Under the pieces are notes generated by a model. That model was not told the origin of the DNA and made no database searches. It saw nothing but the letters and a program-made list of their open reading frames with translations. A DNA stretch of 64,000 bases from an uncultured delta proteobacterium (lineage in GTDB: Bacteria > Myxococcota > Myxococcia > Myxococcales > Myxococcaceae): positions 64,001-128,000 of the forward strand of contig CAVZMH010000003.1 in the NCBI GenBank assembly GCA_963776345.1, given 5' to 3'. Both the position numbers and the translations under genes were made by a program. This document shows, one piece after another, positions 33,941 to 54,298 of this stretch; within the stretch, counting starts at the first letter, position 1, and every line of letters starts with the position of its first letter.

Positions 33941-36900
33941 TTGGGGACCGGTGCCGATTCCGTCAAGGCGTACTCCGCCGTCCTGCACAAGAAGCCGAAC
34001 GACGCCGAGGCGCTCGCGGCGCTGGAGGCGTTGCTGAAGGACGAGACGGTGCGCGCCGAGGCCGCGCGGGCCCTCATCCCCGCCTACGAGGCGGTCAAGG
34101 AGCACCGGAAGCTGGTCGCCGCGCTCGATCTGGTCGCGGAGATGACCCAGGACCAGCTGGAGCGGGTGCTCGCGCTCCAGCAGGCCGCCCACGTCCACCT
34201 CCACCACCTCCGGCAGCCCGAGCTGGCCTTCGCCGCGCTCTCCCGCGCGCTGCGCCTCTCGCCGGCCGACCCGAACCTCCGCACCGCCGCCCGCCGCGCC
34301 GCCGAGGATGCGGACGCGATGGACGGGTTCGCCAACGTGCTCAAGGAGCTGGTGGGCCGTCCCGACGTCGAGCCGCCCGCGCGCGTCGCGCTCCACCGCG
34401 AGCTGGCGGACGTCCAGGAGAAGAAGCTCGACGACCGCCGCGGCGCCATCGGCCAGCTGGAGGCCGTCCTCGCGCTCGAGCCCGGGAACGGGGACGCGCT
34501 CCGGGCGCTCCAGCGGCTGCTCCGCGCCACGGACGACTGGCACCGGCTGGTCCCGGTTCTGGACACGCTCGCCGGCGTGGTGCCGGACCCGGCGGAGCGG
34601 CTCGCCCTCCTTCGCGAGATGGCCCTGCTCCTCGAGGGCAAGCTCGAGGACCGCGAGGCGGCAGCCGCGGCGTGGCGCCGGGTCTCGGAGGCCGACCCGC
34701 TGAACCGCGAGGCCGTCTCCGCGCTCGACCGGCTCTACACCGCGCTCGGGAAGTTCGAGAACCTGGCCTTCGCCCTCGAGCTCCGCCGGGCCCAGGAGGG
34801 CCAGAGCCCCCAGGGCCGTGAGGCGACCTTCCGGCTCGCCCAGCTCCGACGCGACAAGCTCCAGGACTTCGGCGGCGCGCTCCAGCTCCTCGGGCAGGTG
34901 CTCTCCGAGGACCCGGGGCACACCGCCACCGTGGACCTGCTGGAGGCCTGGGCACGCTCGCACGATCCGGACAGCCGGAGCGCGCTGGAGACGCTCGATC
35001 CGGTCCTGACCCGCTCCGGACAGCACGCGCGCCGGGTGGCGATCCGCGAGGCGCGGATGGCCGACGCGCTCACCGACGAGAAGATCCGTCTCTCCCAGGA
35101 GATCCGCTCCATCCAGGAGCGCGACATGGGCCAGCCGCAGCGGGCCTTCGTCGCCGCCGGCCAGGCCTTCGCCGCCAACGTCGACCGGGCGGGCTCCCGG
35201 GCCGACCTGGAGCGCCTGGCCCGGGTGACCGGGAGCTACGAGGAGCTGGCCGACGTCTACGAGCAGGTGGCCGCGGGCAACCGCGGGGCCGACCCGGACA
35301 AGATCGCCTGCCTCCGCCGCGCCGCCGAGCTGCGCGAGCACCTCGCCCAGAGCGACGAGGCGATCAAGGACTGGCAGGCGCTGCTCGCCGACGCGCCGCA
35401 GGACCGCCAGGCCCTCGACGCGCTGGGGAAGCTCTTCGAGCACACCAAGAACGCCAAGCAGCTCTCGGACGTCACCCTGCGCAAGGCCCAGCTCGCCGCG
35501 GACCCCCACGAGCGGCGCACCCTGCTGCTCAAGGCGGGCGAGGCGCTGGAGGCCGCGGCCGACGACGCCCGCGCCATCGACGCCTACAAGGAGGCGCTGG
35601 CGCTCCGGCGTGGGGCGGACGGGCTCGAGGCGCTGGACCGGCTCTACGCCCGGGGCCGCCGCTTCGAGGAGCAGGCCGACGTCCTGTCCCAGCTCGCCGC
35701 CTCCACCACCGGCGAGGTCCAGAAGGCCCACCTGCTCCGCCGGGCCCAGCTGCTCGAGCGGGAGAAGGAGCTACCCGCGGCGGTGGAGGGCTACGCGCGC
35801 CTCCTCGCCGTCGCGCCCACCGAGCCCAACGCGGTCGCCGGGCTGGAGCGGCTGATGGAGCTCCCCGACGTCCGGCCGGACGCGGCGCGCCTGCTCGAGC
35901 CGGTCTACCGGAGCCTGAACGACGTCCGGCACCTGGTGGAGGTGCTGGAGATCCGCCTCGCGGGCGCCTCGCCGCAGGACCGGCTCCCGCTCCTGGAGGA
36001 GATCGCCAACCTCCGCGAGACGCTGGGAGAGAAGGACCTGGCCTTCGCCGCGCGCGCTCGCAGCTTCAGCGAGGTGCCCGAGAGCCCCGAGGCCCGCGAG
36101 CAGCTGGAGCGGCTGGCGGCCGAGACCGGCGCGTTCGAGGAGCTGGCGGCGGCCTACCAGGACCAGCTCGAGCGCGGGGTCACCAACGCCACCTCCACCG
36201 AGCTCTGGCGCCGGCTGGCCGTCCTCTGGTCCGAGCGGCTCGACCGCATGGACCTCGCGGTGCGCGCCTACGAGGAGCTGGCGCGACGCGAGCCGAGGAA
36301 CGTGGCGGTGCTGGAGTCGCTGGCCCGCATCCACACCCGCGCCGGGGAGGCGCGAGAGCTGGCCGCGGTGATGAAGCGGATGGTGATGGCCGAGCCGTCG
36401 CCGCCGAAGCAGATCGATCTGCTCTTCCGCCTCGGCACGCTGGCCGAGGAGACGCTGTCCGACAAGCAGCTCGCCGCGCAGTGCTACGGGGAGATCCTCG
36501 CCCGGAAGCCGGACGACGAGGACGCGATCAAGTTCCTCGGCAAGGTTCTCACCGAGAGCGAGCGCTGGCCCGAGCTGGCCTCGCTCATCGTCCGGGAGAT
36601 CCAGCTCGCCGACTCCTCCGGCCGCCACGAGGAGATGTACGACCTGATGGTGCGCCTGGGCCGGCTGCGCATCGCGCGGCTCCGGGACCCGCGCGGGGGC
36701 CTGGACATCTTCGAGGACGTGCTCCGGAGGAAGCAGGGACACGCCGGGGCCATCGGCGCGCTGGAGGAGATGGCGCGCTCGGACAGCCCGCTCCGCGGCG
36801 AGGCGGCCGAGGCGCTCGAGCCCATCTTCACCTCCGGCGGCGACCACCTCCGGCTGGTGCAGATGCTCGAGTCGCGCGCCTCGACCGAGCCGGTGGCCGA

Positions 36901-39900
36901 GGAGCGCGCGGCGCTCCTCCGCAAGGTCGCCAAGCTCTACGCCGGGCCGATGCAGAACGGCGACCTGGCCTTCGTCTCCGCGAGCCGGGCGCTCCGCGAG
37001 CTCCCCGACGAGGAGGCCTCGCTCTCGCTGGTGGTCGCGCTCGCCGAGCGGGCCAGCCACGGCGGCGAGGAGCTGGCCTCGCTGCTCGAGGAGATCCTCC
37101 CCCGCGCCTCCGAGGACGCCGCCCGGGTGGCCATCCTCAGGGCGCTGGGCAAGGCGCAGGAGAAGCTCGGGCACCAGGCCGAGGCCATCGACGCCTGGCG
37201 GCGGGTGCTGGAGGTGGCGCCCTCCGACGGCGAGGCGATGGGGTTCCTGGTCCGGCTCTACCAGGCCGCCGGCCGCGCGCCCGAGCTGCTGGAGATCTAC
37301 AAGCGCCAGCTCTCGATCAGCGAGGAGCCGGCGGTCCGCGCCGCGCTGCTCTTCCAGATCGCCGGACTGCAAGACTCGGCGGTGCACGACACCGTCGGCG
37401 CCATGGCCACGCTCCGGCGCCTGCTGGAGCTGAAGCCGGATGACGCCCAGGCGCTGGAGAAGCTCGACGCGCTCTGCGAGAAGCAGGAGCGCTGGCCGGA
37501 GCTGGCGGACGTCATCGGCCGACGGCTGGCGCTGCCCGGCGGGGACCTCGACCTCGACCTCCGGCTGCGGCTGGCGGTGGTCCGCGAGACGCGGCTCCAC
37601 GACAAGATCGGCGCGCTCGAGCTGTACGGGCAGATCCTCTCCGCCCAGCCGAAGCACCCGGGGGCCCTGGCGCAGCTCGAGGCATGGGCGAAGCGGGAGC
37701 CCCAGAACAAGCCGCTGGTGGAGGTGCTCCTCGGCGCGTACCGCGTGACCGGCGAGCAGGCGAAGCTGGCGGGTCTGCTCGAGCTCCGGGTCGGCGCCTC
37801 GCCGGACCCGTTCGAGCGAAGGCAGCTCCTGATCGAGCTCGCCGGCCTGCACGAGGCGGGCCACGATCCCGCCGGTGTCTTCGGGGCCCTCGCCCGCGCC
37901 TTCCAGGAGGACCCGAACGACGCCGCGCTCCGGGCGCGCCTGGGCAAGGCGGCGGACGCCGCGCGGGCCCACGAGGCGCTGGCCCACCTCTACGAGGAGG
38001 AGCTCCCGCGCATCGCCGAGACGAAGGACGCCGCGGCGGCGCTCCTCGAGCTCGGCGGCCTGTACGAGCAGCACCTGTCGAACCCCGCCCGGGCCATCGA
38101 GGTCCTGGAGCGGGCGCGCACGCTCGACGCGGCGACCTCGCTCCCTGCGCTCACCGCGCTCTCCCGTCTCTACGGACAGGCCGGCCGGAGCGATCGCCTG
38201 GTCGAGAGCCTGGACGAGCTGGAGAAGCTCACCCCCGACGGGAACGAGCGGGTGCAGATCCTCTTCCGCCTCGGGCAGGTCGCCCAGGACGAGCTGGAGG
38301 ACGAGCCCCGCGCGGCGGACGCCTTCGAGCGGCTCCTGGCAATCGACAAGACGCACCTCCCGGCGGCCCGGCTGCTCGAGTCCATCTACGAGCGCAGCGG
38401 CACGCCGGACCGGCTGTTCAACGTGCTTCGCATCCAGCGCGACCTGACCTCGGGGCCGGAGCGGGAGCGCATCCTCGCCAAGATGGTGAAGGTCTCCGCC
38501 GAGGGGCTGGCGGACCTCGAGGCCTCCATCGAGCTGTACAGCGAGCTCTTTAAGAAGAACCCCAAGTCGGACCAGGCGTTCGGCGCACTGGAGCAGGCGC
38601 TGGAGAAGGCCGGCCGCTGGGAGGATCTCCGGGCGCTCCTCGCCGGGAAGATCCCCCAGACCGCCGACCCGCGGGAGCTGGTGCGACTGAATGAGAAGCT
38701 GGGCGTGGTGCTCTATCGGCAGCTCGGCCGGGCCGAGGAGGCCATCGCCCCGCTCCGCACCGCGCTGGAGCGCGACGCCCGGAACCGGAACGCGCTGGAG
38801 ACGCTGCGCGACATCGACGAGCAGCTCGGCCGCCGCGAGGAGCTGGTCGCGGTGCTGCGGCGGCTCATCCCGCTCCAGGAGGCTCCGGAGGGGGTGAAGG
38901 CCCTGCGGATCCGGCTCGCCGAGGTGCTGGGGGAGATGAGCCGGCGCGAGGAGGCCCTCGACGCCGCTCGCCGCTCGCTGGAGATCGAGCCCCACACCGT
39001 CGCCGACCTGGACCGGGTGGGGAAGCTGTTCCTCGGGTTGCGGGCCTTCGGCGACGCAGTGCGGGCGCTGGAGCTGAAGGCCGAGGTCTGGCAGCTGCTG
39101 GAGGAGAAGGACGGGGTCATCGCCGCGCTGTTCGAGATCGCCGAGGTGTGGATCGGCCAGGCCGGAAAGCCCGAGCAGGCCGCGCCCATCCTCGAGCGGG
39201 TGCTGGAGTTCGATCCGGCCAACCGCAACGCCTACGAGCGAGTGCTCTCGCTCTACTCGGACGCTGGCGACTGGCGCGCTTACGCGCAGGCCGTGGACCG
39301 GTATCTGCCGAACCTCGTCACCGACGAGGACAAGATCAAGGCGCTGCGCGAGCTGGGCCGCATCCGGGAGCAGAAGCTCGGGCAGAAGGACGGGGCGTTC
39401 CTCGCGCTCTGCCGCGCGCTGCAGCTCGACGCCTCGGACGACTCGCTCCGCGAGGACGTGGAGCGGCTCGCCCAGGAGACCGGCTCGTTCGAGGAGCTGG
39501 CCGCGGTCTACGAGCAGGTGGCGGACGAGCTCCCCAAGGGACCGCTGGCCGAGCGGCTGTACCTCGTGCTCGCCCGGGTGCAGGACCGGAACCTCGACGA
39601 TCCGGGCGAGGCCGAGGCGGCGCTGCGGAAGATTCTCGAGTTCGACCCCACCAACGCCTCGGCGCTGGACGCGATGGCCCAGATGTTCGGCCGCCGCGGG
39701 CGCGACCGCGAGCTGATCGTCTCGCTGGAGCAGAAGCTGGAGGCCGCGCCGTCGATCGAGGCCCGGAAGACGATCCTGCGGGAGGTCGCCCGCATCCACC
39801 TCGAGCGGCTGAAGGACCCGGAGGAGGCGGCGAACGCCCTCATCCGTGCGCTGGAGCTCGAGGCCGACGTGGAGACGCTGGCGGAGCTGGCCAGGCTCTA

Positions 39901-42900
39901 CCGCGAGCAGCACATGTGGGGCGATCTCGCCGCCACCCTCGCCCGCACCCGCGATCTGCTCCCCACCGCCGAGGAGCGGGCGCGGATGCAGGTCCAGGTC
40001 GCCGAGGTCCAGGAGCGGGAGATCGGCGACGAGGAGGCCGCGGTCGAGGCCTACCGCGAGGCCCTGGCGCTCGACCCCCGCAACAAGGAGGCGCTGGAGG
40101 CGCTGGAGCGGCTCTACACCCGGCTCGACCGGCCGGCGGACCTGCTCGCCATCTACGAGCGGCAGCTGGAGCTGACCGAGGACTACCGGGAGAAGGTGAA
40201 GATCCTCTTCCACTCCGCGGCCATCTGGGAGGACCGCTACCAGAACGCGGCCAACGCCGACGCCTGCATCGACGGGGTGCTGGCGCTGGATCCGACCAGC
40301 CTCCAGGCGATCAAGGCGCTGGAGCGGCTGCGGCGCGCGCAGGGACGGTGGGAGGACCTGGTCGGCGTGCTCGAGCGGCACATCCAGCTGGCGACCGACA
40401 CCCAGGAGCAGGCCGACATCATGGTGGAGGCCGGAGAGGTGCTCCGCACGCACCTGCACCAGACCGACAAGGCGGCCGACGCGTTTCAGGCCGCCCTTCA
40501 AGTCTTCCCCGGCCACACCCCGGCGCTCCATGCGCTGGGAACCCTCTACGAGCGGAGCGGCAACTGGCCCTTCGCGCTGGAGATGCTGCATCAGGAGGCC
40601 CAGGAGCTGGGACGCGACCCGCGCGCGGTGGAGGTGCTCCACCGGATGGGGAAGATCAACGAGGACATGCTGCAGGACGTGTCCTCGGCCAAGGCCTGCT
40701 ACGCCGAGGCGCTGCGGATTGACCCCGACTACCTCCCTTCGCTCCAGGCGGTCCGGGGCATCTACGAGAACGAGCAGGACTGGGACAGCTACGAGCAGAC
40801 CCTGGTCGCCGAGGCCCGGGCCACCGACGAGGCCTCGGCCAAGGCCCGCGCCTACCTGGCCATCGCCCGCTACCACAGCGAGCGCCGCGAGGACCCCGAC
40901 TCGGCGATGCACTGGTACGAGGAGGCGATCAAGCTCGACCCGGAGCTGGCCGACGCCGCGCTGCCTCTGTCCGACATCTACCTCGCCCGCGAGCGGTGGG
41001 AGCCCGCCGAGCAGATGCTCGAGGTGGTCATCCGCAGCTTCAAGGGCCGGCTCGCCACCGAGCAGGACGACGCGCTCTCCAAGGACCTCTGCCGGCAGGT
41101 CTACCGGATGGGCTACGTGCAGGAGAAGCTGGGGCGGCGGGACCGCGCGCTCGCCGCTTACGAGGAGGCCTACCAGCTCGACGCCACCTATCTCCCGGCG
41201 CTCGAGGGCTACGGAAATCTCCTGGTCCAGTCCGGCCGGCACGACCAGGCGCTGAAGGTCTTCCAGACCATCCTCATCCACCACCGGGAGGATCTGACCG
41301 ATCTGGAGATCGTCGAGCTGTACTGGCAGATCGGCGAGGTGCACATCGCGCTCAAGCAGCACGATCGGGCGCAGAACCACTTCGAGAAGGCGCTGGCCAT
41401 CGACCCCGGCCACGAGCCGAGCCTCCGGGCGCTGATCCAGCTCGCGGACGGGGCAGGGCGGTGGGACCGCTCGGCCGAGTACCGACAGGCGCTGGTCGGA
41501 GTGCTCGAGGGCGAGCCGAAGGCCGAGGCGGCGCTGGAGCTGGGTCAGCTCGCCCGCGACCGGCTGCGCGACCCGCACACCGCCATCGACGCCTACGCCC
41601 AGGCGCTGCGCATCCGTCCGCAGTCGCTCGAGGTGATGGACGCGCTCTACGTGCTGTACCGGGAGACGCGCCAGCCGGGGAAGGCGGCGGAGGTGCTGGA
41701 GACGATGCTCGGCCAGCCCGAGCTCCAGGCCGACGCCCAGCGCGCCAAGCGGGTGTGGTTCGCGCTCGGGGAGAGCCTGCGGGACGAGCTGCGCGACACC
41801 GGGCGCGCGGTGGAGGCGTTCAACGCCGCGCTGGACCTCGACCCGCAGTTCCTCGAGGCATTCGGCGCCATCGAGGCGATGCTCGGCGCGGCCAAGGAGT
41901 GGAAGCAGCTGGAGGAGAACTACGCCCGGATGATCCAGCGGCTCCCGAAGACCGACGAGACGGAGCCGGCGCGGATGGCGCTGTGGCGGGCGCTCGGTGA
42001 CCTGTACCTCCAGGTCCTCAAGCAGCCCGAGAGCGCCCTCATGGCGTACCAGGTGTCCGCGGCGGGACTCCCGGACGACGCCCCGGTCCAGGAGACCTAC
42101 GCCGAGCTGCTTCTCCAGTCCTCGGGCAACGAGGAGAAGGCGGTGCAGGCGCTGCGGCTGGCGCTGGCCCACACCCAGAATCCGAAGAAGGTGGCGAGCC
42201 AGCTGGCCGAGCTGGCCGCGCGCCGGAAGGACTACGACGGCGCCTGGCTCGCCGCCCAGGTCGTGGCAGGCCTGCTCGGCGATCCGGGGCCCGCGGAGAA
42301 GGAGATCATCAGCAAGCTCGGGCCGTACGCCAAGAAGCGGGAGACGCCTCGGGCCACGCTGAACGACCGGTCGTGGGCCCAGCATCTGCTGCACCCCAGG
42401 GTGCGAACCCCGTTCGCCGAGCTGATGGGGCTGCTCTTCCAGGGGGCCGGCCAGCTCTCCGCGGTCCCGCTGGCGCAGGCGCAGCTCGTCCCGAAGAAGC
42501 ACCGCATCGACGTGGCCACCGCGCAGGAGTACCAGATCCACCACTACCGGGCGGTGGCGCGGCTCCTGGGGCTCGAGGCGGTGGAGCTGTTCTCGCCCTT
42601 CCTCGTCGCCACCCGCGACAAGCTGGCCAAGCGCTCCATGGAGCCGGCGCCGGACCCGCTGCTCGCGGTGGAGATCGTCCACGCCCATCCGGTGTGTCTG
42701 AAGGTCGGCGGGAAGTTCTTCGGCGACCCGCAGGCCAAGGACACCCATGCGCAGCTGGGGCGCACCCTGGCGCTGCTCCGACCGGAGCTGATCTTCGCCT
42801 CGCGGTTCTCGCCCGAGCGACTGGCGGCGGTCTTCCAGGGCGCGGTGCTGCTCGCCGGCTTCCAGATGCGCTGGACCGCCCAGGCCGGGGCGATCGAGGC

Positions 42901-43228
42901 GGAGCGCCAGGCGCTGGAATCGGTGATGACCGAGCCGTTCCGGGCGGCCCTGGCCCGGTTGGTCCCCGAGGTGCTGCGCCGGTCCGAGGGCGACCCGGTC
43001 CGGGAATACCTGGAGGGGGCAGAGCTGACCGGGGTCCGCTGTGCGCTGTTCACCGCGGGCGACCTCGAGGCGGTGAAGAAGCTCGTCCAGGGTGAAACCG
43101 GCTCCAGCTATCGCGTCGCGGGCAAGGTGAAGATCCGCGAGCTGATGACCTTCGCGGTCTCCGAGGACCTCGCCGCGCTCCGGATGGCGGTGGGAACCAA
43201 CGTCGAGGTCCCCACCCGGAAGTCCTGA
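33941..43228 (+). CDS. gltI: Giant TPR gliding motility protein GltI/AgmK
   Basis: 3095 aa of TPR-like helical repeats directly upstream of gltJ; GGGAGG before TTG 33941. Confidence 0.8.
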   Translation: MGTGADSVKAYSAVLHKKPNDAEALAALEALLKDETVRAEAARALIPAYEAVKEHRKLVAALDLVAEMTQDQLERVLALQQAAHVHLHHLRQPELAFAALSRALRLSPADPNLRTAARRAAEDADAMDGFANVLKELVGRPDVEPPARVALHRELADVQEKKLDDRRGAIGQLEAVLALEPGNGDALRALQRLLRATDDWHRLVPVLDTLAGVVPDPAERLALLREMALLLEGKLEDREAAAAAWRRVSEADPLNREAVSALDRLYTALGKFENLAFALELRRAQEGQSPQGREATFRLAQLRRDKLQDFGGALQLLGQVLSEDPGHTATVDLLEAWARSHDPDSRSALETLDPVLTRSGQHARRVAIREARMADALTDEKIRLSQEIRSIQERDMGQPQRAFVAAGQAFAANVDRAGSRADLERLARVTGSYEELADVYEQVAAGNRGADPDKIACLRRAAELREHLAQSDEAIKDWQALLADAPQDRQALDALGKLFEHTKNAKQLSDVTLRKAQLAADPHERRTLLLKAGEALEAAADDARAIDAYKEALALRRGADGLEALDRLYARGRRFEEQADVLSQLAASTTGEVQKAHLLRRAQLLEREKELPAAVEGYARLLAVAPTEPNAVAGLERLMELPDVRPDAARLLEPVYRSLNDVRHLVEVLEIRLAGASPQDRLPLLEEIANLRETLGEKDLAFAARARSFSEVPESPEAREQLERLAAETGAFEELAAAYQDQLERGVTNATSTELWRRLAVLWSERLDRMDLAVRAYEELARREPRNVAVLESLARIHTRAGEARELAAVMKRMVMAEPSPPKQIDLLFRLGTLAEETLSDKQLAAQCYGEILARKPDDEDAIKFLGKVLTESERWPELASLIVREIQLADSSGRHEEMYDLMVRLGRLRIARLRDPRGGLDIFEDVLRRKQGHAGAIGALEEMARSDSPLRGEAAEALEPIFTSGGDHLRLVQMLESRASTEPVAEERAALLRKVAKLYAGPMQNGDLAFVSASRALRELPDEEASLSLVVALAERASHGGEELASLLEEILPRASEDAARVAILRALGKAQEKLGHQAEAIDAWRRVLEVAPSDGEAMGFLVRLYQAAGRAPELLEIYKRQLSISEEPAVRAALLFQIAGLQDSAVHDTVGAMATLRRLLELKPDDAQALEKLDALCEKQERWPELADVIGRRLALPGGDLDLDLRLRLAVVRETRLHDKIGALELYGQILSAQPKHPGALAQLEAWAKREPQNKPLVEVLLGAYRVTGEQAKLAGLLELRVGASPDPFERRQLLIELAGLHEAGHDPAGVFGALARAFQEDPNDAALRARLGKAADAARAHEALAHLYEEELPRIAETKDAAAALLELGGLYEQHLSNPARAIEVLERARTLDAATSLPALTALSRLYGQAGRSDRLVESLDELEKLTPDGNERVQILFRLGQVAQDELEDEPRAADAFERLLAIDKTHLPAARLLESIYERSGTPDRLFNVLRIQRDLTSGPERERILAKMVKVSAEGLADLEASIELYSELFKKNPKSDQAFGALEQALEKAGRWEDLRALLAGKIPQTADPRELVRLNEKLGVVLYRQLGRAEEAIAPLRTALERDARNRNALETLRDIDEQLGRREELVAVLRRLIPLQEAPEGVKALRIRLAEVLGEMSRREEALDAARRSLEIEPHTVADLDRVGKLFLGLRAFGDAVRALELKAEVWQLLEEKDGVIAALFEIAEVWIGQAGKPEQAAPILERVLEFDPANRNAYERVLSLYSDAGDWRAYAQAVDRYLPNLVTDEDKIKALRELGRIREQKLGQKDGAFLALCRALQLDASDDSLREDVERLAQETGSFEELAAVYEQVADELPKGPLAERLYLVLARVQDRNLDDPGEAEAALRKILEFDPTNASALDAMAQMFGRRGRDRELIVSLEQKLEAAPSIEARKTILREVARIHLERLKDPEEAANALIRALELEADVETLAELARLYREQHMWGDLAATLARTRDLLPTAEERARMQVQVAEVQEREIGDEEAAVEAYREALALDPRNKEALEALERLYTRLDRPADLLAIYERQLELTEDYREKVKILFHSAAIWEDRYQNAANADACIDGVLALDPTSLQAIKALERLRRAQGRWEDLVGVLERHIQLATDTQEQADIMVEAGEVLRTHLHQTDKAADAFQAALQVFPGHTPALHALGTLYERSGNWPFALEMLHQEAQELGRDPRAVEVLHRMGKINEDMLQDVSSAKACYAEALRIDPDYLPSLQAVRGIYENEQDWDSYEQTLVAEARATDEASAKARAYLAIARYHSERREDPDSAMHWYEEAIKLDPELADAALPLSDIYLARERWEPAEQMLEVVIRSFKGRLATEQDDALSKDLCRQVYRMGYVQEKLGRRDRALAAYEEAYQLDATYLPALEGYGNLLVQSGRHDQALKVFQTILIHHREDLTDLEIVELYWQIGEVHIALKQHDRAQNHFEKALAIDPGHEPSLRALIQLADGAGRWDRSAEYRQALVGVLEGEPKAEAALELGQLARDRLRDPHTAIDAYAQALRIRPQSLEVMDALYVLYRETRQPGKAAEVLETMLGQPELQADAQRAKRVWFALGESLRDELRDTGRAVEAFNAALDLDPQFLEAFGAIEAMLGAAKEWKQLEENYARMIQRLPKTDETEPARMALWRALGDLYLQVLKQPESALMAYQVSAAGLPDDAPVQETYAELLLQSSGNEEKAVQALRLALAHTQNPKKVASQLAELAARRKDYDGAWLAAQVVAGLLGDPGPAEKEIISKLGPYAKKRETPRATLNDRSWAQHLLHPRVRTPFAELMGLLFQGAGQLSAVPLAQAQLVPKKHRIDVATAQEYQIHHYRAVARLLGLEAVELFSPFLVATRDKLAKRSMEPAPDPLLAVEIVHAHPVCLKVGGKFFGDPQAKDTHAQLGRTLALLRPELIFASRFSPERLAAVFQGAVLLAGFQMRWTAQAGAIEAERQALESVMTEPFRAALARLVPEVLRRSEGDPVREYLEGAELTGVRCALFTAGDLEAVKKLVQGETGSSYRVAGKVKIRELMTFAVSEDLAALRMAVGTNVEVPTRKS

Positions 43229-49605: not shown

Positions 49606-49664
49606 CGTCGGGGATCCGAGTGTTGCGGCTTCTCGTCGCTCACTCCCGGACCTGGAGCCTGCCC

Positions 49665-50366
49665 ATGCGAAATGCAGTCCTGATTGCAGCCGTCGCCCTC
49701 GCCACCGTCGCTCGCGCCGAGTACACCGAGGCGGCAGTCACCAACGGCGGAACGATCAGCGGTCGCGTCACCTACGACGGCACGCCACCGAAGCCCGAGA
49801 AGGTCACCGTCACCCAGGATCCCGGGACCTGCGGGACGTCGCGCGAGCTCGACGAGTGGCAGGTCTCCTCGTCAGGAGGGGTGAAGGACACGGTCGTCTA
49901 CCTGGTGGACATCAAGAGCGGGAAGAAGATGGACCTCCCGAGCAAGCCGACCCTCGACCAGAAGGGCTGCCGCTACGACCCGCACATGCAGATCATCGGT
50001 CAGAACGCGGACCTGCAGGTCAAGAACAGCGACCCGATCCTCCACAACATCCACTCGTACCAGGAGGGCCGGACCATCCTGAACCTCGCCGAGCCCAAGC
50101 AGGGGATGGTGGTGGAGAAGAAGATGAAGAAGTCTGGCGGTCAGTCGCTGAAGTGCGACGTCCACAACTTCATGCGCGGCGGGCTCTTCGTGGCGGAGAA
50201 TCCCTACGCGGTGGTCACTGACGCCGACGGCAAGTACGAGATCAAGGACGTCCCCCCCGGCACGTACCAGATCGCCGCCTTCCACGAGGTCGCCGGGACC
50301 AAGATGGGCACGGTCACCGTCCCCGCCGGGGGGAAGGCGTCCTACGACGCGAAGATCAAGAAGTGA
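49665..50366 (+). CDS. Periplasmic cupredoxin-like / carboxypeptidase-regulatory-like domain protein
   Basis: Signal peptide ending ARA; GTISGRV; LDQKGCRYDPH; NSDPILHNIH; KCDVHNFM; DVPPGTY. Confidence 0.75.
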   Translation: MRNAVLIAAVALATVARAEYTEAAVTNGGTISGRVTYDGTPPKPEKVTVTQDPGTCGTSRELDEWQVSSSGGVKDTVVYLVDIKSGKKMDLPSKPTLDQKGCRYDPHMQIIGQNADLQVKNSDPILHNIHSYQEGRTILNLAEPKQGMVVEKKMKKSGGQSLKCDVHNFMRGGLFVAENPYAVVTDADGKYEIKDVPPGTYQIAAFHEVAGTKMGTVTVPAGGKASYDAKIKK

Positions 50367-50893
50367 CCCGCTTCGCCGCTCCCGGTCGCCTCGAGCGCTG
50401 GGTGGCGCGCCCGGTCTTCTGGTGGACGGCGATGGGGCTCCTGGTGGGGGGCCTCCTCGTCTCGGGGGTGTCCCGCCCCGTGCCCCCGCGGCTCCCGGTG
50501 CTGGATCGGGTCCCGCCCACCGGCCGGGGGCGGCTGGTCGTCTTCGGTGATCCGGCGTGCCCGGAGTGCGTCGCCGCCAGCTCCGGGGCGCTGCGCTCCC
50601 TCTCCCGTCACCTCCGGTCGGTCCGCCAGGGCTTCGATCTGGAGTGGATCAGCCTGGGCGACGCGGCGACGGCCCCCGCGCTCGGACCGCCGGTCCTCAC
50701 GGTGGACGATGGTTCGCGCGCTGCACCTCTGGTCGCGTTCCTGGCGCGGAGCCCGGAGCAGGCCGCGCTCCGCCGCGGCGAGCGCGGGGTGCTGGTCGAT
50801 CCGGCCGGCAAGGTCCGGGCGCTGCCCGTGCTCTCCGATCCGCCCGCGCGCGATCTGCTGCCGGCGATCACCCAGGTGATCAACGGTCGCTAG
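50363..50893 (+). CDS. Degenerate SCO/thioredoxin-like membrane-anchored protein
   Basis: N-terminal TM then PPRLPVL; CPEC; late VLVDPAGKVR, as in the SCO strand LVDxxGxIR. Confidence 0.5.
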   Translation: MTRFAAPGRLERWVARPVFWWTAMGLLVGGLLVSGVSRPVPPRLPVLDRVPPTGRGRLVVFGDPACPECVAASSGALRSLSRHLRSVRQGFDLEWISLGDAATAPALGPPVLTVDDGSRAAPLVAFLARSPEQAALRRGERGVLVDPAGKVRALPVLSDPPARDLLPAITQVINGR

Positions 50894-50937
50894 CGAACAG
50901 TCCGGGCTCCCGGGCGCTGCTCGACTGTTCGATGTTT
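50894..50937 (+). terminator. Possible terminator hairpin
   Basis: CGAACAGTC (50894) and GACTGTTCG (50923) inverted repeat followed by ATGTTT, right after the stop codon. Confidence 0.35.
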
Positions 50938-51105
50938 GACTGAGCAATGAAGTGGTGTTTCCAGGCAGGGCTTCATTGCTTCTGCTTCAAACGACGCGGC
51001 GTGGCGTGAAAATCCTTTGTTTGGAATCTTCGCCCGGTTGTCCCTTTAGTTGCGCGCGCAATGGATGCCGCTCGATGTGGCGAGCGGCCGAGGGAGGAGG
51101 GTGGC

Positions 51106-52413
51106 ATGAAGCTGCGCGTCCTTGTCGTCGCCGCTGCCGCGCTGGCAGTGCTGCTACCGGGATCGGCCGGGGCGATCCCTGCCTTCGCCCGGAAGTACAA
51201 CGTGGCCTGCAGCACCTGCCACGAGGCCTGGCCGAAGCTGAACGACTTCGGGCAGCTGTTCCGTGACAACGGCTACCGGATGAACCGGGGCAAGGACAAC
51301 CCCACCGAGCAGAACGGGTCGTACTGGCCGATCGCCATGCGCACCACCGTGGGCTACCAGTTCGCGCAGCAGGAGGGGGTGGCGGTGGCTGAGCCGCCGG
51401 GGACCACCACCACCAAGACCGGGACTCTCGGCTTCGCCGGCCTGGACATCCTCACCGCCGGTGCGCTCGGCGAGCAGATGAGCTGGCTGCTGGTCTACAC
51501 CCCTGGGCTGGGGAGCGCGGGATTCGGAACCGGGCCCGCAGACGGAGATCTGGAATCGGCCTTCGTCGGCTTCCACCGCCTCTTCGGAACACCGTTCCTC
51601 AACCTCCGGGTGGGGAAGCACGCGCCGGATCTGCCGGTGGACGAGCACCGGATCCTGACCCTCACCCAGGGGTACAACATCTTCCACTTCCATCCGCAGG
51701 GAAGCGCCGCGACCTTCGAGCCAGGGAGCAACCAGGCGGGCGTGGAGATCTACGGACACACCGAGCTGGACGAGCTCCGCTACTCCGTCACGGTGGCCAC
51801 CGAGAACGACGCCATCTTCTCCAAGAACTGGGTCAGCTCGCCGGTGGTCTGGGCCAGGGTCTCGGGGAAGGTGATGCTCAACAACGGGATCCTGCCGGAG
51901 ATCAAGGGCGGAATCTTCGGCTCCGCCGGCTGGCACCCGGTCCAGGCGCTGACCGATCCTGCCTCGGGGGACCCGGTGAGCGGCACGGCCTACTCCAACC
52001 AGCCCTACCAGAAGTTCGGGGCCGATCTGCACCTGCTCTTCTTCAGCACCGTGAACCCCCTGGACATCACCGGGGTGGTGATGTTCGGGAACGAGGACCA
52101 GGCGCTGATCGCCAATGGCACCCGGTCCGCGCAGTGGCTCGGCGGGTTCGTCGAGGTGAACTGGGTCCCCACCTTCAACTGGGCGATCGTCGGCCGGTAC
52201 GAGCAGATCGCCACCACCCAGGCCGGGGACCCCACGGCGGCGCAGGATGAGGGGGATCTCACCGCGTTCACCCTCGCGATTCGCTACACGATGGAGTTCT
52301 CGAACCGGGCGGCGGTCACCCTGGTGCTCGAGGGTAGCCAGGTCTCCACCACTTCGTCGGGCATGCAGCCGAAGGGCAGCACTGTGCTCGCCGGCATCGA
52401 CTTCGCGTTCTAA
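51106..52413 (+). CDS. cyc2: Cyc2/Cyt572-like fused monoheme cytochrome c - outer-membrane porin
   Basis: GGAGGAGG RBS; signal peptide ending AGA; IPAFARKYNVACSTCHEAWPKLNDFGQLFRDNGY; about 370 aa of amphipathic strands ending GIDFAF. Confidence 0.8.
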   Translation: MKLRVLVVAAAALAVLLPGSAGAIPAFARKYNVACSTCHEAWPKLNDFGQLFRDNGYRMNRGKDNPTEQNGSYWPIAMRTTVGYQFAQQEGVAVAEPPGTTTTKTGTLGFAGLDILTAGALGEQMSWLLVYTPGLGSAGFGTGPADGDLESAFVGFHRLFGTPFLNLRVGKHAPDLPVDEHRILTLTQGYNIFHFHPQGSAATFEPGSNQAGVEIYGHTELDELRYSVTVATENDAIFSKNWVSSPVVWARVSGKVMLNNGILPEIKGGIFGSAGWHPVQALTDPASGDPVSGTAYSNQPYQKFGADLHLLFFSTVNPLDITGVVMFGNEDQALIANGTRSAQWLGGFVEVNWVPTFNWAIVGRYEQIATTQAGDPTAAQDEGDLTAFTLAIRYTMEFSNRAAVTLVLEGSQVSTTSSGMQPKGSTVLAGIDFAF

Positions 52414-52430: not shown

Positions 52431-53186
52431 ATGGCCTCGCTCCGACCCGTCCTCGTCGCCACCCTCGGCATCGCCGCGGTGGCGCTTCTCTCCGGTGCCG
52501 ACCAGGGCGGTGACGCCGCCCCGGTACCCATCGATCAGGGCCTCGTCGCCCGCGGCAAGCCGCTCTACGAGCGCTTCTGCATCAGCTGTCACGGACCGCA
52601 GGGCGACGGCCAGGGATACGCCGCCCAGTGGCTGGATCCGCTGCCCCGGGATTTCACCTCGGGCATCTTCAAGTGCCGCTCGACGCCGAGCGGGACGCTG
52701 CCCACCGACGCGGACCTGATGCGCACGCTGCGCGTCGGCGTCTACCACACGTACATGCCGCCCTGGGCCGCGCTGGGGGACTGGAACCTCCGCGCGCTGG
52801 CCGAATACATCAAGACCTTCTCGCCGAAGTGGAAGGAGGAGGCGCCCGGGCAGCCGATCACCATCCCGCCTGCGCCTCCGGACGACGAGGCCTCCCGGAA
52901 GCGCGGCGCGGTGATCTGGGCCAACAACCAGTGCGCCAAGTGCCACGGGGCCAAGGGCAAGGGCGACGGGCTCTCGGTGCCCACCCTGATGGACGACTGG
53001 GGTCACCACATCACCCCGTTCGACTTCACCAGCAGCGACGCCCGGAAGTGCGGGAACACCGACACCGATCTCTACCGGACCTTCATGACCGGGGTGAGCG
53101 GCACGCCGATGCCCTCCTTCGCCGACAGCCTGAAGCCGGAGGAGGCCTGGGACCTGGTGCACTTCCTCCACACGCTCCGTCAGTAG
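52431..53186 (+). CDS. Diheme cytochrome c
   Basis: Signal peptide; CISCH and CAKCH; PRDFT; MPPW and MPSF distal Met motifs. Confidence 0.9.
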   Translation: MASLRPVLVATLGIAAVALLSGADQGGDAAPVPIDQGLVARGKPLYERFCISCHGPQGDGQGYAAQWLDPLPRDFTSGIFKCRSTPSGTLPTDADLMRTLRVGVYHTYMPPWAALGDWNLRALAEYIKTFSPKWKEEAPGQPITIPPAPPDDEASRKRGAVIWANNQCAKCHGAKGKGDGLSVPTLMDDWGHHITPFDFTSSDARKCGNTDTDLYRTFMTGVSGTPMPSFADSLKPEEAWDLVHFLHTLRQ

Positions 53187-53202: not shown

Positions 53203-53844
53203 ATGACCACCGCCGCCACCCACGTTCACCACGAGGTCACCGCCAGCTGGCCACCCGACGCCCAGTTCGGGAAGGCCAACCCCGCCAAGCTGGCGATGTG
53301 GATCTTCCTCCTCTCAGACTGGCTGTCGTTCGCCGGGCTCCTCCTGGCCTATGGCATCCTCCGAGCCGGGAACGCGGTGTGGCGCCACCCGGGAGAGCCG
53401 GCGCTCAACATCCCCTTCACCTGCCTCCTGACGCTGGTGCTCATCGCCTCGAGCATCAGCGTCATCGTGGCCCACGACGCGGCGCTCGGGGGCGACCGCC
53501 GTCGCACCGCGCGCTGGCTGGGCATCACCGCCCTCGGGGGGGTGCTGTTCCTCACCGGCCAGTACGCGGAGTGGATCGGCATCCTCCACCCCGGGCTGAT
53601 GCACGAGGGTCTGGTGTTCGGGCGCTCGGCCTACGCCAGCACCTTCTACGTGATCACCGGCTTCCACGGCCTGCACGTCACGGCCGGCGTCATCTACCTG
53701 CTCGCGGTGCTCGGGCGCACCGCCCGGGGCGTGGCCCGGGCCCAGGAGGTGGAGCTGGTGGCGCTCTTCTGGCACTTCGTCGACCTGGTCTGGAACCTGG
53801 TGTTCGTCCTGGTCTACCTGGTGCCTACCGGAGGTGCGGGATGA
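53203..53844 (+). CDS. Heme-copper oxidase subunit III-like (copy 1)
   Basis: KLAMWIFLLSD, FYVITGFHGLHV, LFWHFVDLVW. Confidence 0.9.
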   Translation: MTTAATHVHHEVTASWPPDAQFGKANPAKLAMWIFLLSDWLSFAGLLLAYGILRAGNAVWRHPGEPALNIPFTCLLTLVLIASSISVIVAHDAALGGDRRRTARWLGITALGGVLFLTGQYAEWIGILHPGLMHEGLVFGRSAYASTFYVITGFHGLHVTAGVIYLLAVLGRTARGVARAQEVELVALFWHFVDLVWNLVFVLVYLVPTGGAG

Positions 53845-54137
53845 GCACCTCGGCGGCGGCCCAGAACCGCACCCGTGACTACTTGGTGATGCTGGCGGTG
53901 ATGGTCGCCCTCACCGTGCTCGAGGTGGGGGTGGCCCTCGTCCCCGGGCACGCGGGCTGGACGGTGGTGCTCCTCCTCGCGCTGGCCCTGGCCCAGGCGG
54001 TGTACTTCGCGCTCTACACCATGCACCTCTCGCGAGAGACGGTCGCGCTGCGACGGATGGCGGCCGGGCCGGGCGTCATCGCCGCGTTCTACGCGCTGGT
54101 GCTGGTCGCCGAGGCAGCCTGGAGGCACTTCACGTGA
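53841..54137 (+). CDS. Heme-copper oxidase subunit IV-like
   Basis: Three TMs, LTVLEV and YTMHLSRE motifs; ATGA coupling. Confidence 0.75.
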   Translation: MSTSAAAQNRTRDYLVMLAVMVALTVLEVGVALVPGHAGWTVVLLLALALAQAVYFALYTMHLSRETVALRRMAAGPGVIAAFYALVLVAEAAWRHFT

Positions 54138-54298
54138 CGCTGTTCCAGCTGGTGCTGCTCGCCTGTCCCGCCTGTGCCGCGAACTCCGCCTCTCCGGGGG
54201 TGGCGGTGCTCCTCCCGGCGCTGATCGGGACGCCCTTCCTGGTGGCCGGGGCGGTCATCCTCGGCATCCGCAAGGTCTCCCGAGGAGGGGAGTCATGA
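54134..54298 (+). CDS. 54-aa membrane protein with a CxxC motif (not in the ORF track)
   Basis: Reads VTLFQLVLLACPACAANSASPGVAVLLPALIGTPFLVAGAVILGIRKVSRGGES; 4-bp overlaps with both neighbours. Confidence 0.7.
   Translation: MTLFQLVLLACPACAANSASPGVAVLLPALIGTPFLVAGAVILGIRKVSRGGES

What the first reader, a model, noticed from the sequence alone, without database searches (positions are those of the whole stretch)
51106..52413. Cyc2/Cyt572-type heme-porin fusion
Seen: the mature N-terminus IPAFARKYNVACSTCHEAWPKLNDFGQLFRDNGY has a single CxxCH followed by a beta-barrel-like body ending in Phe. Known: PxFARx5CxxCH..PxL..G..F...G[FY] is the Cyc2 signature, and from memory the FARKY/WPxL variant resembles Leptospirillum Cyt572 (cluster 3). 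Caveat: cluster 3 homologs also occur in organisms not known to oxidise iron.
Basis: partly seen in the sequence, partly recalled or inferred. Interest (0 to 1): 0.8.

Follow-up and report, generated by a model that had tools for sequence, protein, structure and literature searches.

The report
Haem porin heading an oxidase operon
This myxobacterial gene encodes a member of the Cyc2 iron-oxidase family, predicted to be an outer-membrane pore carrying one haem, and it sits directly in front of genes for a two-haem carrier and an oxygen-reducing enzyme, so it likely feeds electrons from dissolved iron or a similar outside donor into respiration (untested).

Summary
Confirmed. ORF 51106-52413 (435 aa) has a signal peptide, the full Cyc2 signature around a single CxxCH, and a predicted 16-strand porin barrel (pLDDT 89) ending in Phe. 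The Cyt572 link holds: a barrel-only profile scores Leptospirillum-type Cyt572 at 43-50 bits, against 1.6 or less for shuffles and below 0 for Burkholderiales-type Cyc2. A tree puts both in one clade (96/98). No cluster 1 reference was available. The gene heads cyc2 - dihaem cytochrome c - coxC-D-B-A-C' - dihaem c, an A1 oxidase lacking the K-channel lysine. Across 55 non-Nitrospirota loci, 51 have the dihaem gene next; 38 of 49 have an A-type or cbb3 oxidase downstream. The same oxidase often occurs without Cyc2, and Nitrospirota homologues lack it. A second, distant Cyc2 in this genome heads an alternative complex III operon. Best reading: a wire from an outside donor, probably Fe(II), to O2, giving extra energy to a genome without RuBisCO. 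The family is known; rus-like clusters in soil genomes were noted in a 2020 preprint, and this scan found the acidobacterial form before.

The parts
51106..52413 (+). Cyc2-family cytochrome-porin, Cyt572-related branch (435 aa)
51106..51174 (+). signal peptide, residues 1-23 (by inspection)
   Evidence: same position in close relatives
51175..51276 (+). haem domain, residues 24-57: Cyc2 upstream motif, CxxCH at 51208-51222, PxL
   Evidence: P25 F27 A28 R29 C35 C38 H39 P43 L45 G49 D54 G56 invariant in 55 of 55 rows including Cyt572
51334..52410 (+). predicted 16-strand beta-barrel ending in Phe
50936..51061 (+). upstream region with two TTG-N6-CAA inverted repeats (50936-50947, 51050-51061); candidate regulator sites
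   Evidence: in 6 same-genus upstream regions aligned, the second repeat is kept in all 6 and the first in 5
49620..50366 (+). secreted protein with His/Cys/His/Met copper-site-like motifs and a C-terminal carboxypeptidase-regulatory-like domain; probable cupredoxin-type carrier
   Evidence: its paralogue beside the second Cyc2 hits PF00127 over cut-off
50363..50893 (+). membrane-anchored protein with a CxxC motif, weak thioredoxin-like match; possible copper chaperone (inferred)
   Evidence: E 0.065 only
52431..53186 (+). dihaem cytochrome c (starts 17 bp after cyc2); inferred direct electron acceptor
53203..53844 (+). cytochrome c oxidase subunit III (first copy)
   Evidence: PF00510
53841..54137 (+). 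oxidase subunit IV
   Evidence: PF03626
54295..55080 (+). oxidase subunit II with CuA motif (Q in place of the usual E)
   Evidence: PF00116
55077..56882 (+). oxidase subunit I, A1 type; D-channel motif present, K-channel Lys replaced by Leu
   Evidence: PF00115
56890..57489 (+). oxidase subunit III (second copy)
   Evidence: PF00510
57493..58428 (+). second dihaem cytochrome c; also present in most Cyc2-free copies of this oxidase operon

Best explanation
The gene encodes a Cyc2-family protein, predicted to be a 16-strand outer-membrane pore with one haem c, that likely takes single electrons from dissolved Fe(II) outside the cell and would pass them through the neighbouring dihaem cytochrome c to the co-encoded A1-type oxidase, which would reduce O2. 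Shown here: the motif, the kinship to Cyt572 through the barrel, the gene order and its conservation, and the oxidase's cofactor motifs. Predicted: the barrel. Inferred: haem attachment (cytochrome c maturation genes are present), the haem domain plugging the barrel from the periplasm, co-transcription, the role of the copper protein, the direction of flow, proton pumping through the D-channel only, and Fe(II) as donor. With no RuBisCO found, this would be extra energy for a heterotroph or mixotroph. My odds: about 0.75 that the module carries electrons inward to O2, and about 0.6 of that share that the donor is Fe(II).
For: Family. Cassette: the dihaem gene follows directly in 51 of 55 non-Nitrospirota loci. 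A co-directional oxidase follows in 38 of the 49 loci with at least 6 kb downstream: 33 A-type and 5 cbb3-type (cbb3 identity checked by family scan for L027, L028, L044, by similarity for L032 and L063). The cassette is therefore joined to two different oxidase families. In G042 it lies behind rather than in front of the oxidase (L102). In the window's genus the block comes and goes as a unit: 4 of 12 genomes have both cyc2 and this oxidase, 7 have neither, and 1 fragmented genome has cyc2 at a contig end. The layout parallels the Acidithiobacillus rus operon (PMC10654088, passages), whose oxidase also lacks the K-channel Lys (10.1101/2020.03.01.968255, passages). Two cluster 3 proteins are reported to oxidise Fe(II): Cyt572 (PMC8406198, passages) and a sediment Nitrospirota Cyc2 expressed in E. 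coli (PMC13647500, passages; its distance from this protein was not measured). Maturation genes PF01578 and PF02628 are in the genome; RuBisCO was not found.
Against: The oxidase does not need Cyc2. Of 15 genomes outside the genus with a subunit I at least 60% identical, 10 have no match to this Cyc2 subfamily; 14 of those oxidase loci were read and none held the Cyc2 motif, though L128 lacks its upstream side. The K-channel loss is shared with those Cyc2-free copies, so it is no mark of iron oxidation. Nitrospirota homologues have neither the dihaem gene (0 of 19) nor an oxidase (0 of 16) downstream. Identity to Cyt572 is only about 25% and Cyt572 sits on a long branch; acidic residues kept in 95% of rows (E150, E350, E409) differ in Cyt572. 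No second invariant His or Met was found as a sixth haem ligand. PMC8406198 (section 13) calls cluster 3 function the most uncertain. No habitat, expression or biochemical data bear on the donor.
Confidence: 0.45

Rival explanations
1. Same inward wire to O2, but the donor is not iron: reduced humic or quinone-type shuttles, Mn(II), or another small reductant.
For: Gene context fixes the acceptor side, not the donor. Cyc2 homologues occur in many bacteria not known to oxidise Fe(II) (PMC5566968, passages) and are candidates for Mn(II) oxidation in Ca. Manganitrophaceae (10.1101/2021.11.15.468770, passages). In G054 the same oxidase type follows Sox-like sulfur genes (L124), so it appears to accept electrons from varied periplasmic modules.
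Against: Every Cyc2 reported as tested in the papers read oxidised Fe(II). The narrow 16-strand pore is argued to suit Fe2+ (PMC8406198, passages).
Confidence: 0.3
2. The protein is a metal-handling or sensing pore: it imports or redox-converts Cu or Fe for oxidase assembly, or reports the outside redox state, and carries no respiratory flux.
For: A copper-motif protein lies within 3.5 kb of the gene in most acidobacterial loci (36 of 38) and in 8 of 25 Nitrospirota loci where no oxidase is near. In L008 the gene lies between two chemoreceptor genes. The oxidase works without Cyc2 in many relatives.
Against: The most constant neighbour is an electron carrier, the dihaem cytochrome (51 of 55). 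Most copies of the oxidase operon are built without the pore, so it is not an assembly factor.
Confidence: 0.15
3. The pore exports electrons (Fe(III) or shuttle reduction under anoxia), and its place beside the oxidase reflects shared low-oxygen regulation.
For: The genome has large multihaem clusters with MtrC/MtrF-like domains (C22), and its second Cyc2 heads an alternative complex III operon that could run quinol to outside.
Against: An oxidase is an electron sink. No quinol-oxidising complex lies in this operon, and repeated joining to oxidases points inward.
Confidence: 0.1

Closest known systems
Cyt572 of Leptospirillum spp. (Cyc2 cluster 3)
   Same: Same spacing of the upstream motif, CxxCH and W-P-x-L; homology through the barrel (43-50 bits barrel-only); same clade (96/98); same top structural match, PorB (PMC10654088 passages).
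   Different: About 25% identity; 412 versus 517-522 mature residues. Cyt572 is from an acidophile and is reported to have an unusual haem, and its partners are not clustered with it (PMC10654088). Here the gene heads an oxidase operon.
rus operon of Acidithiobacillus ferrooxidans (cyc2-cyc1-cup-coxBACD-rus)
   Same: Works like it by layout: cytochrome-porin, dihaem cytochrome, copper protein and an A-family oxidase without the K-channel Lys.
   Different: That Cyc2 is cluster 2. Here the order is cyc2-dihaem-coxC-D-B-A-C'-dihaem, with two subunit III genes and an A1 rather than A2 oxidase. No rusticyanin gene was recognised, and the copper protein is upstream with an extra C-terminal domain. 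Orthology of the dihaem and copper proteins to Cyc1 and Cup was not tested.
rus-like COX clusters in Gemmatimonadetes and other soil MAGs (bioRxiv 10.1101/2020.03.01.968255)
   Same: Clusters with other c-type cytochromes and a duplicated COX3 in non-acidophilic soil bacteria.
   Different: The passages read name no Myxococcota and do not assign a Cyc2 branch.
Cluster 3 Cyc2 of Ca. Mariimomonas ferrooxydans (PMC13647500)
   Same: Cluster 3, 16 strands, about 49 kDa; reported to speed Fe(II) oxidation in E. coli.
   Different: Anoxic sediment autotroph proposed to use nitrate; no sequence was available for comparison.
16-strand porins OprP/OprO and PorB
   Same: Barrel fold (Z about 24).
   Different: 12-14% identity; no haem domain.

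Membership tests
Cyc2 cytochrome-porin family | N-terminal signal peptide | tested here: met
   residues 1-23 by inspection; no predictor was run
Cyc2 cytochrome-porin family | single CXXCH near the mature N-terminus | tested here: met
   C35-H39
Cyc2 cytochrome-porin family | AXPXFAR[Q/K][T/Y] upstream and PXL downstream of CXXCH (PMC8406198) | tested here: met
   A23-Y31 and P43-L45; 2 of 277 CxxCH sites in the genome have both
Cyc2 cytochrome-porin family | length of at least 365 aa | tested here: met
   435 aa
Cyc2 cytochrome-porin family | fused 16-strand barrel resembling OprO/OprP | tested here: met
   prediction only:
Cyc2 cytochrome-porin family | haem domain seated inside the barrel | not testable with these tools
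   model coordinates are not returned; residues 21-70 have block pLDDT 38-82
Cyc2 cytochrome-porin family | covalent haem, outer-membrane location, Fe(II) oxidation | not testable with these tools
   needs bench work
Cyc2 cluster 3 | homology to Cyt572 beyond the haem motif | tested here: met
Cyc2 cluster 3 | groups with Cyt572 apart from the Burkholderiales-type (taken as cluster 2) proteins | tested here: met
   21-row clade 96/98 in the 31-row tree; 55-row clade SH-aLRT 99 in the 67-row tree. The cluster 2 label is inferred from PMC10654088.
Cyc2 cluster 3 | best score to the FeGenie cluster 3 HMM; exclusion from cluster 1 with references | not testable with these tools
   no FeGenie models; no cluster 1 sequence was obtained; Pfam and NCBIfam gave no Cyc2 model
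Cyt572 orthologue | close sequence match, about 570 aa | tested here: not met
   24-26% identity and 435 aa, against 61-81% among the three distinct Cyt572-type proteins fetched
rus operon | [quoted passage not shown] | tested here: not met
   different order, two subunit III genes, no rusticyanin recognised; works like it, not a member
A1-type haem-copper oxidase (neighbour) | GHPEVY motif, six His ligands, D-channel motif, CuA motif | tested here: met
   motif meanings recalled, D124/K354 roles
A1-type haem-copper oxidase (neighbour) | K-channel Lys | tested here: not met
   absent in 54 of 56 aligned subunits I; present only in the 2 housekeeping copies L109 and L138

The most novel reading that the evidence does not exclude
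These small-genome myxobacteria carry a two-armed outside-electron system built from two unrelated Cyc2 paralogues. The Cyt572-branch Cyc2 with its dihaem partner is a portable cassette that has docked onto A1 and cbb3 oxidases in several phyla and runs Fe(II) electrons downhill to O2. The second Cyc2, heading a copper protein and alternative complex III, links the outside to the quinone pool. This would make Myxococcota and Acidobacteriota an unrecognised, widespread guild of neutrophilic Fe(II)-respiring heterotrophs.
Probability: 0.2. Interest if true: 0.75.

Novelty: new variant of a known kind. Interest (0 to 1): 0.45.

Why it matters
What cluster 3 Cyc2 does in bacteria not known to oxidise iron is an open question (PMC8406198). 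Here the gene context gives a direction (towards O2) and names the partners. That turns the question into a small testable set: the pore, the dihaem cytochrome and the oxidase. If Fe(II) is the donor, myxobacterial and acidobacterial heterotrophs would gain respiratory energy from iron. The protein itself is an ordinary new member of a known family; the variant is the operon.

Tried and rejected
Pfam and NCBIfam name nothing for the protein (only a weak BBP2 hit, E 0.004). A PDB sequence search found 0 matches. Atlas look-alikes were unnamed clusters, one with 20% Porin_O_P.

Natural Cyc2-dihaem fusion: the search of longer proteins found none (weak evidence). The apparent fusion in L054 loses the normal C-terminus and looks like a sequencing frameshift, so it was rejected.

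Expression: no RNA holder was listed. The same-study RNA run gave only short scattered contigs, so no conclusion was drawn.

The sigma-70 scan found 0 promoter-like sites, and terminators were at shuffle level. Recalled FNR, Fur, CRP, RegA and sigma-54 patterns gave no hit upstream in the window.

K-channel loss as an iron-oxidation marker was rejected because Cyc2-free copies share it.

Recent horizontal transfer is not evident from composition (cyc2 GC 0.67, GC3 0.92; ffh 0.68 and 0.97).

Fig. S8 logos of PMC8406198 are pictures and gave only the legend.

Literature searches listed no paper whose title or abstract start describes this operon in Myxococcota. The library lacks most subscription journals and most listed papers were not opened.

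Rows left out of trees: 4 partial or frameshifted loci; the trees used 67 and 31 of 145 collected sequences.

Full report
Observation. PMC8406198 (passages, section 13, supplements 7 and 8 read) defines Cyc2 by an AXPXFAR[Q/K][T/Y] motif upstream and PXL downstream of CXXCH, a length of at least 365 aa and a 16-strand porin. All are met. Of 277 CxxCH sites in the genome's long frames only 2 carry both motifs. AlphaFold2 gives pLDDT 88.8 and 16 strands from residue 77 to 434; the haem domain is less sure (block means 38-82 over residues 21-70). Foldseek and VIA-align rank PorB, OprP, VhChiP and OprO first, at Z about 24. I could not view coordinates, so the haem's seat inside the barrel is not checked.

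Host and range. The nearest named proteins are from Myxococcaceae (85% identity); 373 of 7,999 scored candidates passed E 0.001. The profile finds 157 representatives at E 1e-30 or better among 1.84 billion. In 301 genomes of the host's phylum, 18 match at E 1e-60 or better, all of 3.8-5.5 Mb.

Which branch. A motif from PMC13741234 (passages) retrieved five Cyt572-type loci, three distinct proteins. Plasmid records gave three Cyc2 proteins of Methylocystis, Caballeronia and Ralstonia, taken as the A. ferrooxidans-linked group on the strength of PMC10654088 (passages). BLASTP aligns the window protein to Cyt572 over mature residues 2-383 (24-26%) but to the plasmid proteins only at the N-terminus. 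With the haem domain removed, the family profile scores Cyt572 at 42.6-49.8 bits, the best of 400 shuffles at 1.6, and the plasmid proteins at -1.3 to -1.6. In a 31-row mixture-model tree the window protein, Cyt572 and the Nitrospirota and Acidobacteriota proteins form one clade (96/98), with Cyt572 on a long stem and its position inside the clade unresolved (same in 67 rows). PMC10654088 also reports Cyc572 joining acidobacterial and Nitrospira homologues. No cluster 1 reference or FeGenie model was available, so 'cluster 3' rests on kinship to Cyt572.

Context. Seventeen bases downstream begins a dihaem cytochrome c, then oxidase subunits III, IV, II, I and III and a second dihaem cytochrome. 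Upstream lie a copper-motif protein and a CxxC protein. Subunit I is A1 type with the D-channel motif but Leu at the K-channel Lys; 54 of 56 aligned subunits lack the Lys, the exceptions being two housekeeping copies. Among the 80 loci, the 55 non-Nitrospirota loci have the dihaem gene next in 51 cases. Of the 49 with at least 6 kb downstream, 33 have an A-type and 5 a cbb3-type oxidase. The 25 Nitrospirota loci have neither (0 of 19 and 0 of 16 with enough flank). These loci are the best 80 hits and many are kin, so the counts are not independent events. The independent points are the joins to two oxidase families and the reversed order in G042 (L102). The acidobacterial subunit I is only about 42% identical to the window's and forms a separate branch. 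Seven further loci from six genomes all show cyc2 followed by the dihaem gene; four have the oxidase behind it.

Controls against. Among 60 relatives, 15 genomes outside the genus have this oxidase type and 10 of them lack this Cyc2 subfamily. Fourteen such oxidase loci show no Cyc2 motif, and most keep their own terminal dihaem gene. So cyc2 plus the first dihaem gene is an add-on cassette to an oxidase that stands alone. Within the genus the whole block is present (4 of 12), absent (7 of 12) or cut by a contig end (1 of 12).

Rest of the genome (98% complete). There are three haem-copper oxidases: this one, a housekeeping caa3 with alternative complex III on C12, and a cbb3 on C15. A second Cyc2 on C20, from a different branch with no barrel-level match to this family (4 bits), heads a copper protein, a pentahaem cytochrome and molybdopterin/Fe-S, NrfD, ActD and monohaem subunits. 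Cytochrome c maturation and haem A synthase genes are present. RuBisCO was not found; other fixation routes were not tested.

Mechanism. Most likely a dissolved donor enters the pore, reduces the haem, and electrons pass by the dihaem cytochrome (perhaps also the copper protein) to CuA and on to O2. I give about 0.75 to inward flow to O2 and 0.45 overall to Fe(II) as donor. Support for Fe(II) is by family only: Cyt572 and one neutrophilic cluster 3 protein (PMC13647500, passages) are reported active. Against: 25% identity, differing acidic residues and no clear sixth ligand, homologues in non-iron-oxidisers (PMC5566968, passages), a Mn(II) candidate role (10.1101/2021.11.15.468770, passages), and an auxiliary role argued for Tenderiales (10.1101/2022.05.06.490989, passages).

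Known versus new. The layout works like the rus operon but fails its gene order. The published version (PMC8239418; passages and a term search of 5 supplements) has no 'Cyc2' in text or supplements and no 'Myxococc' in the supplements. PMC7029218 and PMC12442345 (passages) gave cluster definitions only. Eight literature searches listed nothing on this operon in Myxococcota. This scan noted the acidobacterial form and a Cyc2-copper protein-quinol complex operon earlier, on other genomes. Verdict: observation confirmed, interpretation supported, protein a new member of Cyc2 on the Cyt572 branch, operon a new variant of a known kind; interest 0.45.

Noticed in passing
L108:5904-13846 (-) = G000:C20: Second, distantly related Cyc2 heading a copper protein, a pentahaem cytochrome and an alternative complex III module; the first three genes are in the same order in G042, G047, G048 and G040.
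   Followed up: partly
window 50936-50947 and 51050-51061: Two TTG-N6-CAA inverted repeats conserved upstream of cyc2 in same-genus genomes; regulator unknown.
   Followed up: partly
L124:1146-10891 (G054): The same K-channel-less oxidase follows a copper-motif protein and SoxB-like, SoxA-like, SoxYZ and rhodanese genes instead of cyc2.
   Followed up: partly
L027, L028, L032, L044, L063: cyc2-dihaem cassette followed by a cbb3 subunit I and a three-haem fused CcoO/P-like protein, in Acidobacteriota and Gammaproteobacteria.
   Followed up: partly
L031:4684-19038: cyc2 cassette flanked by two A-type oxidase operons on the opposite strand and an 8-haem 1,107-aa cytochrome.
   Followed up: no
L104:9762-11983 and L105:5496-7756: A sister Cyc2 branch placed directly after a dihaem protein, a cytochrome c peroxidase (PF03150) in L104.
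   Followed up: no
L008:6785-15210: Nitrospira cyc2 with two monohaem cytochromes between two chemoreceptor genes.
   Followed up: no
L139:5709-10196 (G000:C3, about 16 kb beyond the window end): NiFe hydrogenase small and large subunits with maturation genes and a monohaem cytochrome, on the same contig as the cyc2 operon.
   Followed up: no
L141 (G000:C22:17000-35000) and L142 (G000:C11): Multihaem cytochrome clusters (9, 13, 9 and 12 haems), some with MtrC/MtrF-like domains.
   Followed up: no
L143 and L144 (G294:C205): Two cyc2-dihaem cassettes 14 kb apart on one contig, only the first followed by the oxidase.
   Followed up: no
window 54137-54295: A short Cys-containing, hydrophobic reading frame appears to fill the gap between oxidase subunits IV and II; not characterised.
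   Followed up: no
window 33941-43228: 3,095-aa TPR-rich protein followed by a zinc-ribbon/GYF-like protein and ffh; looks like typical myxobacterial gliding-motility context (label recalled).
   Followed up: no
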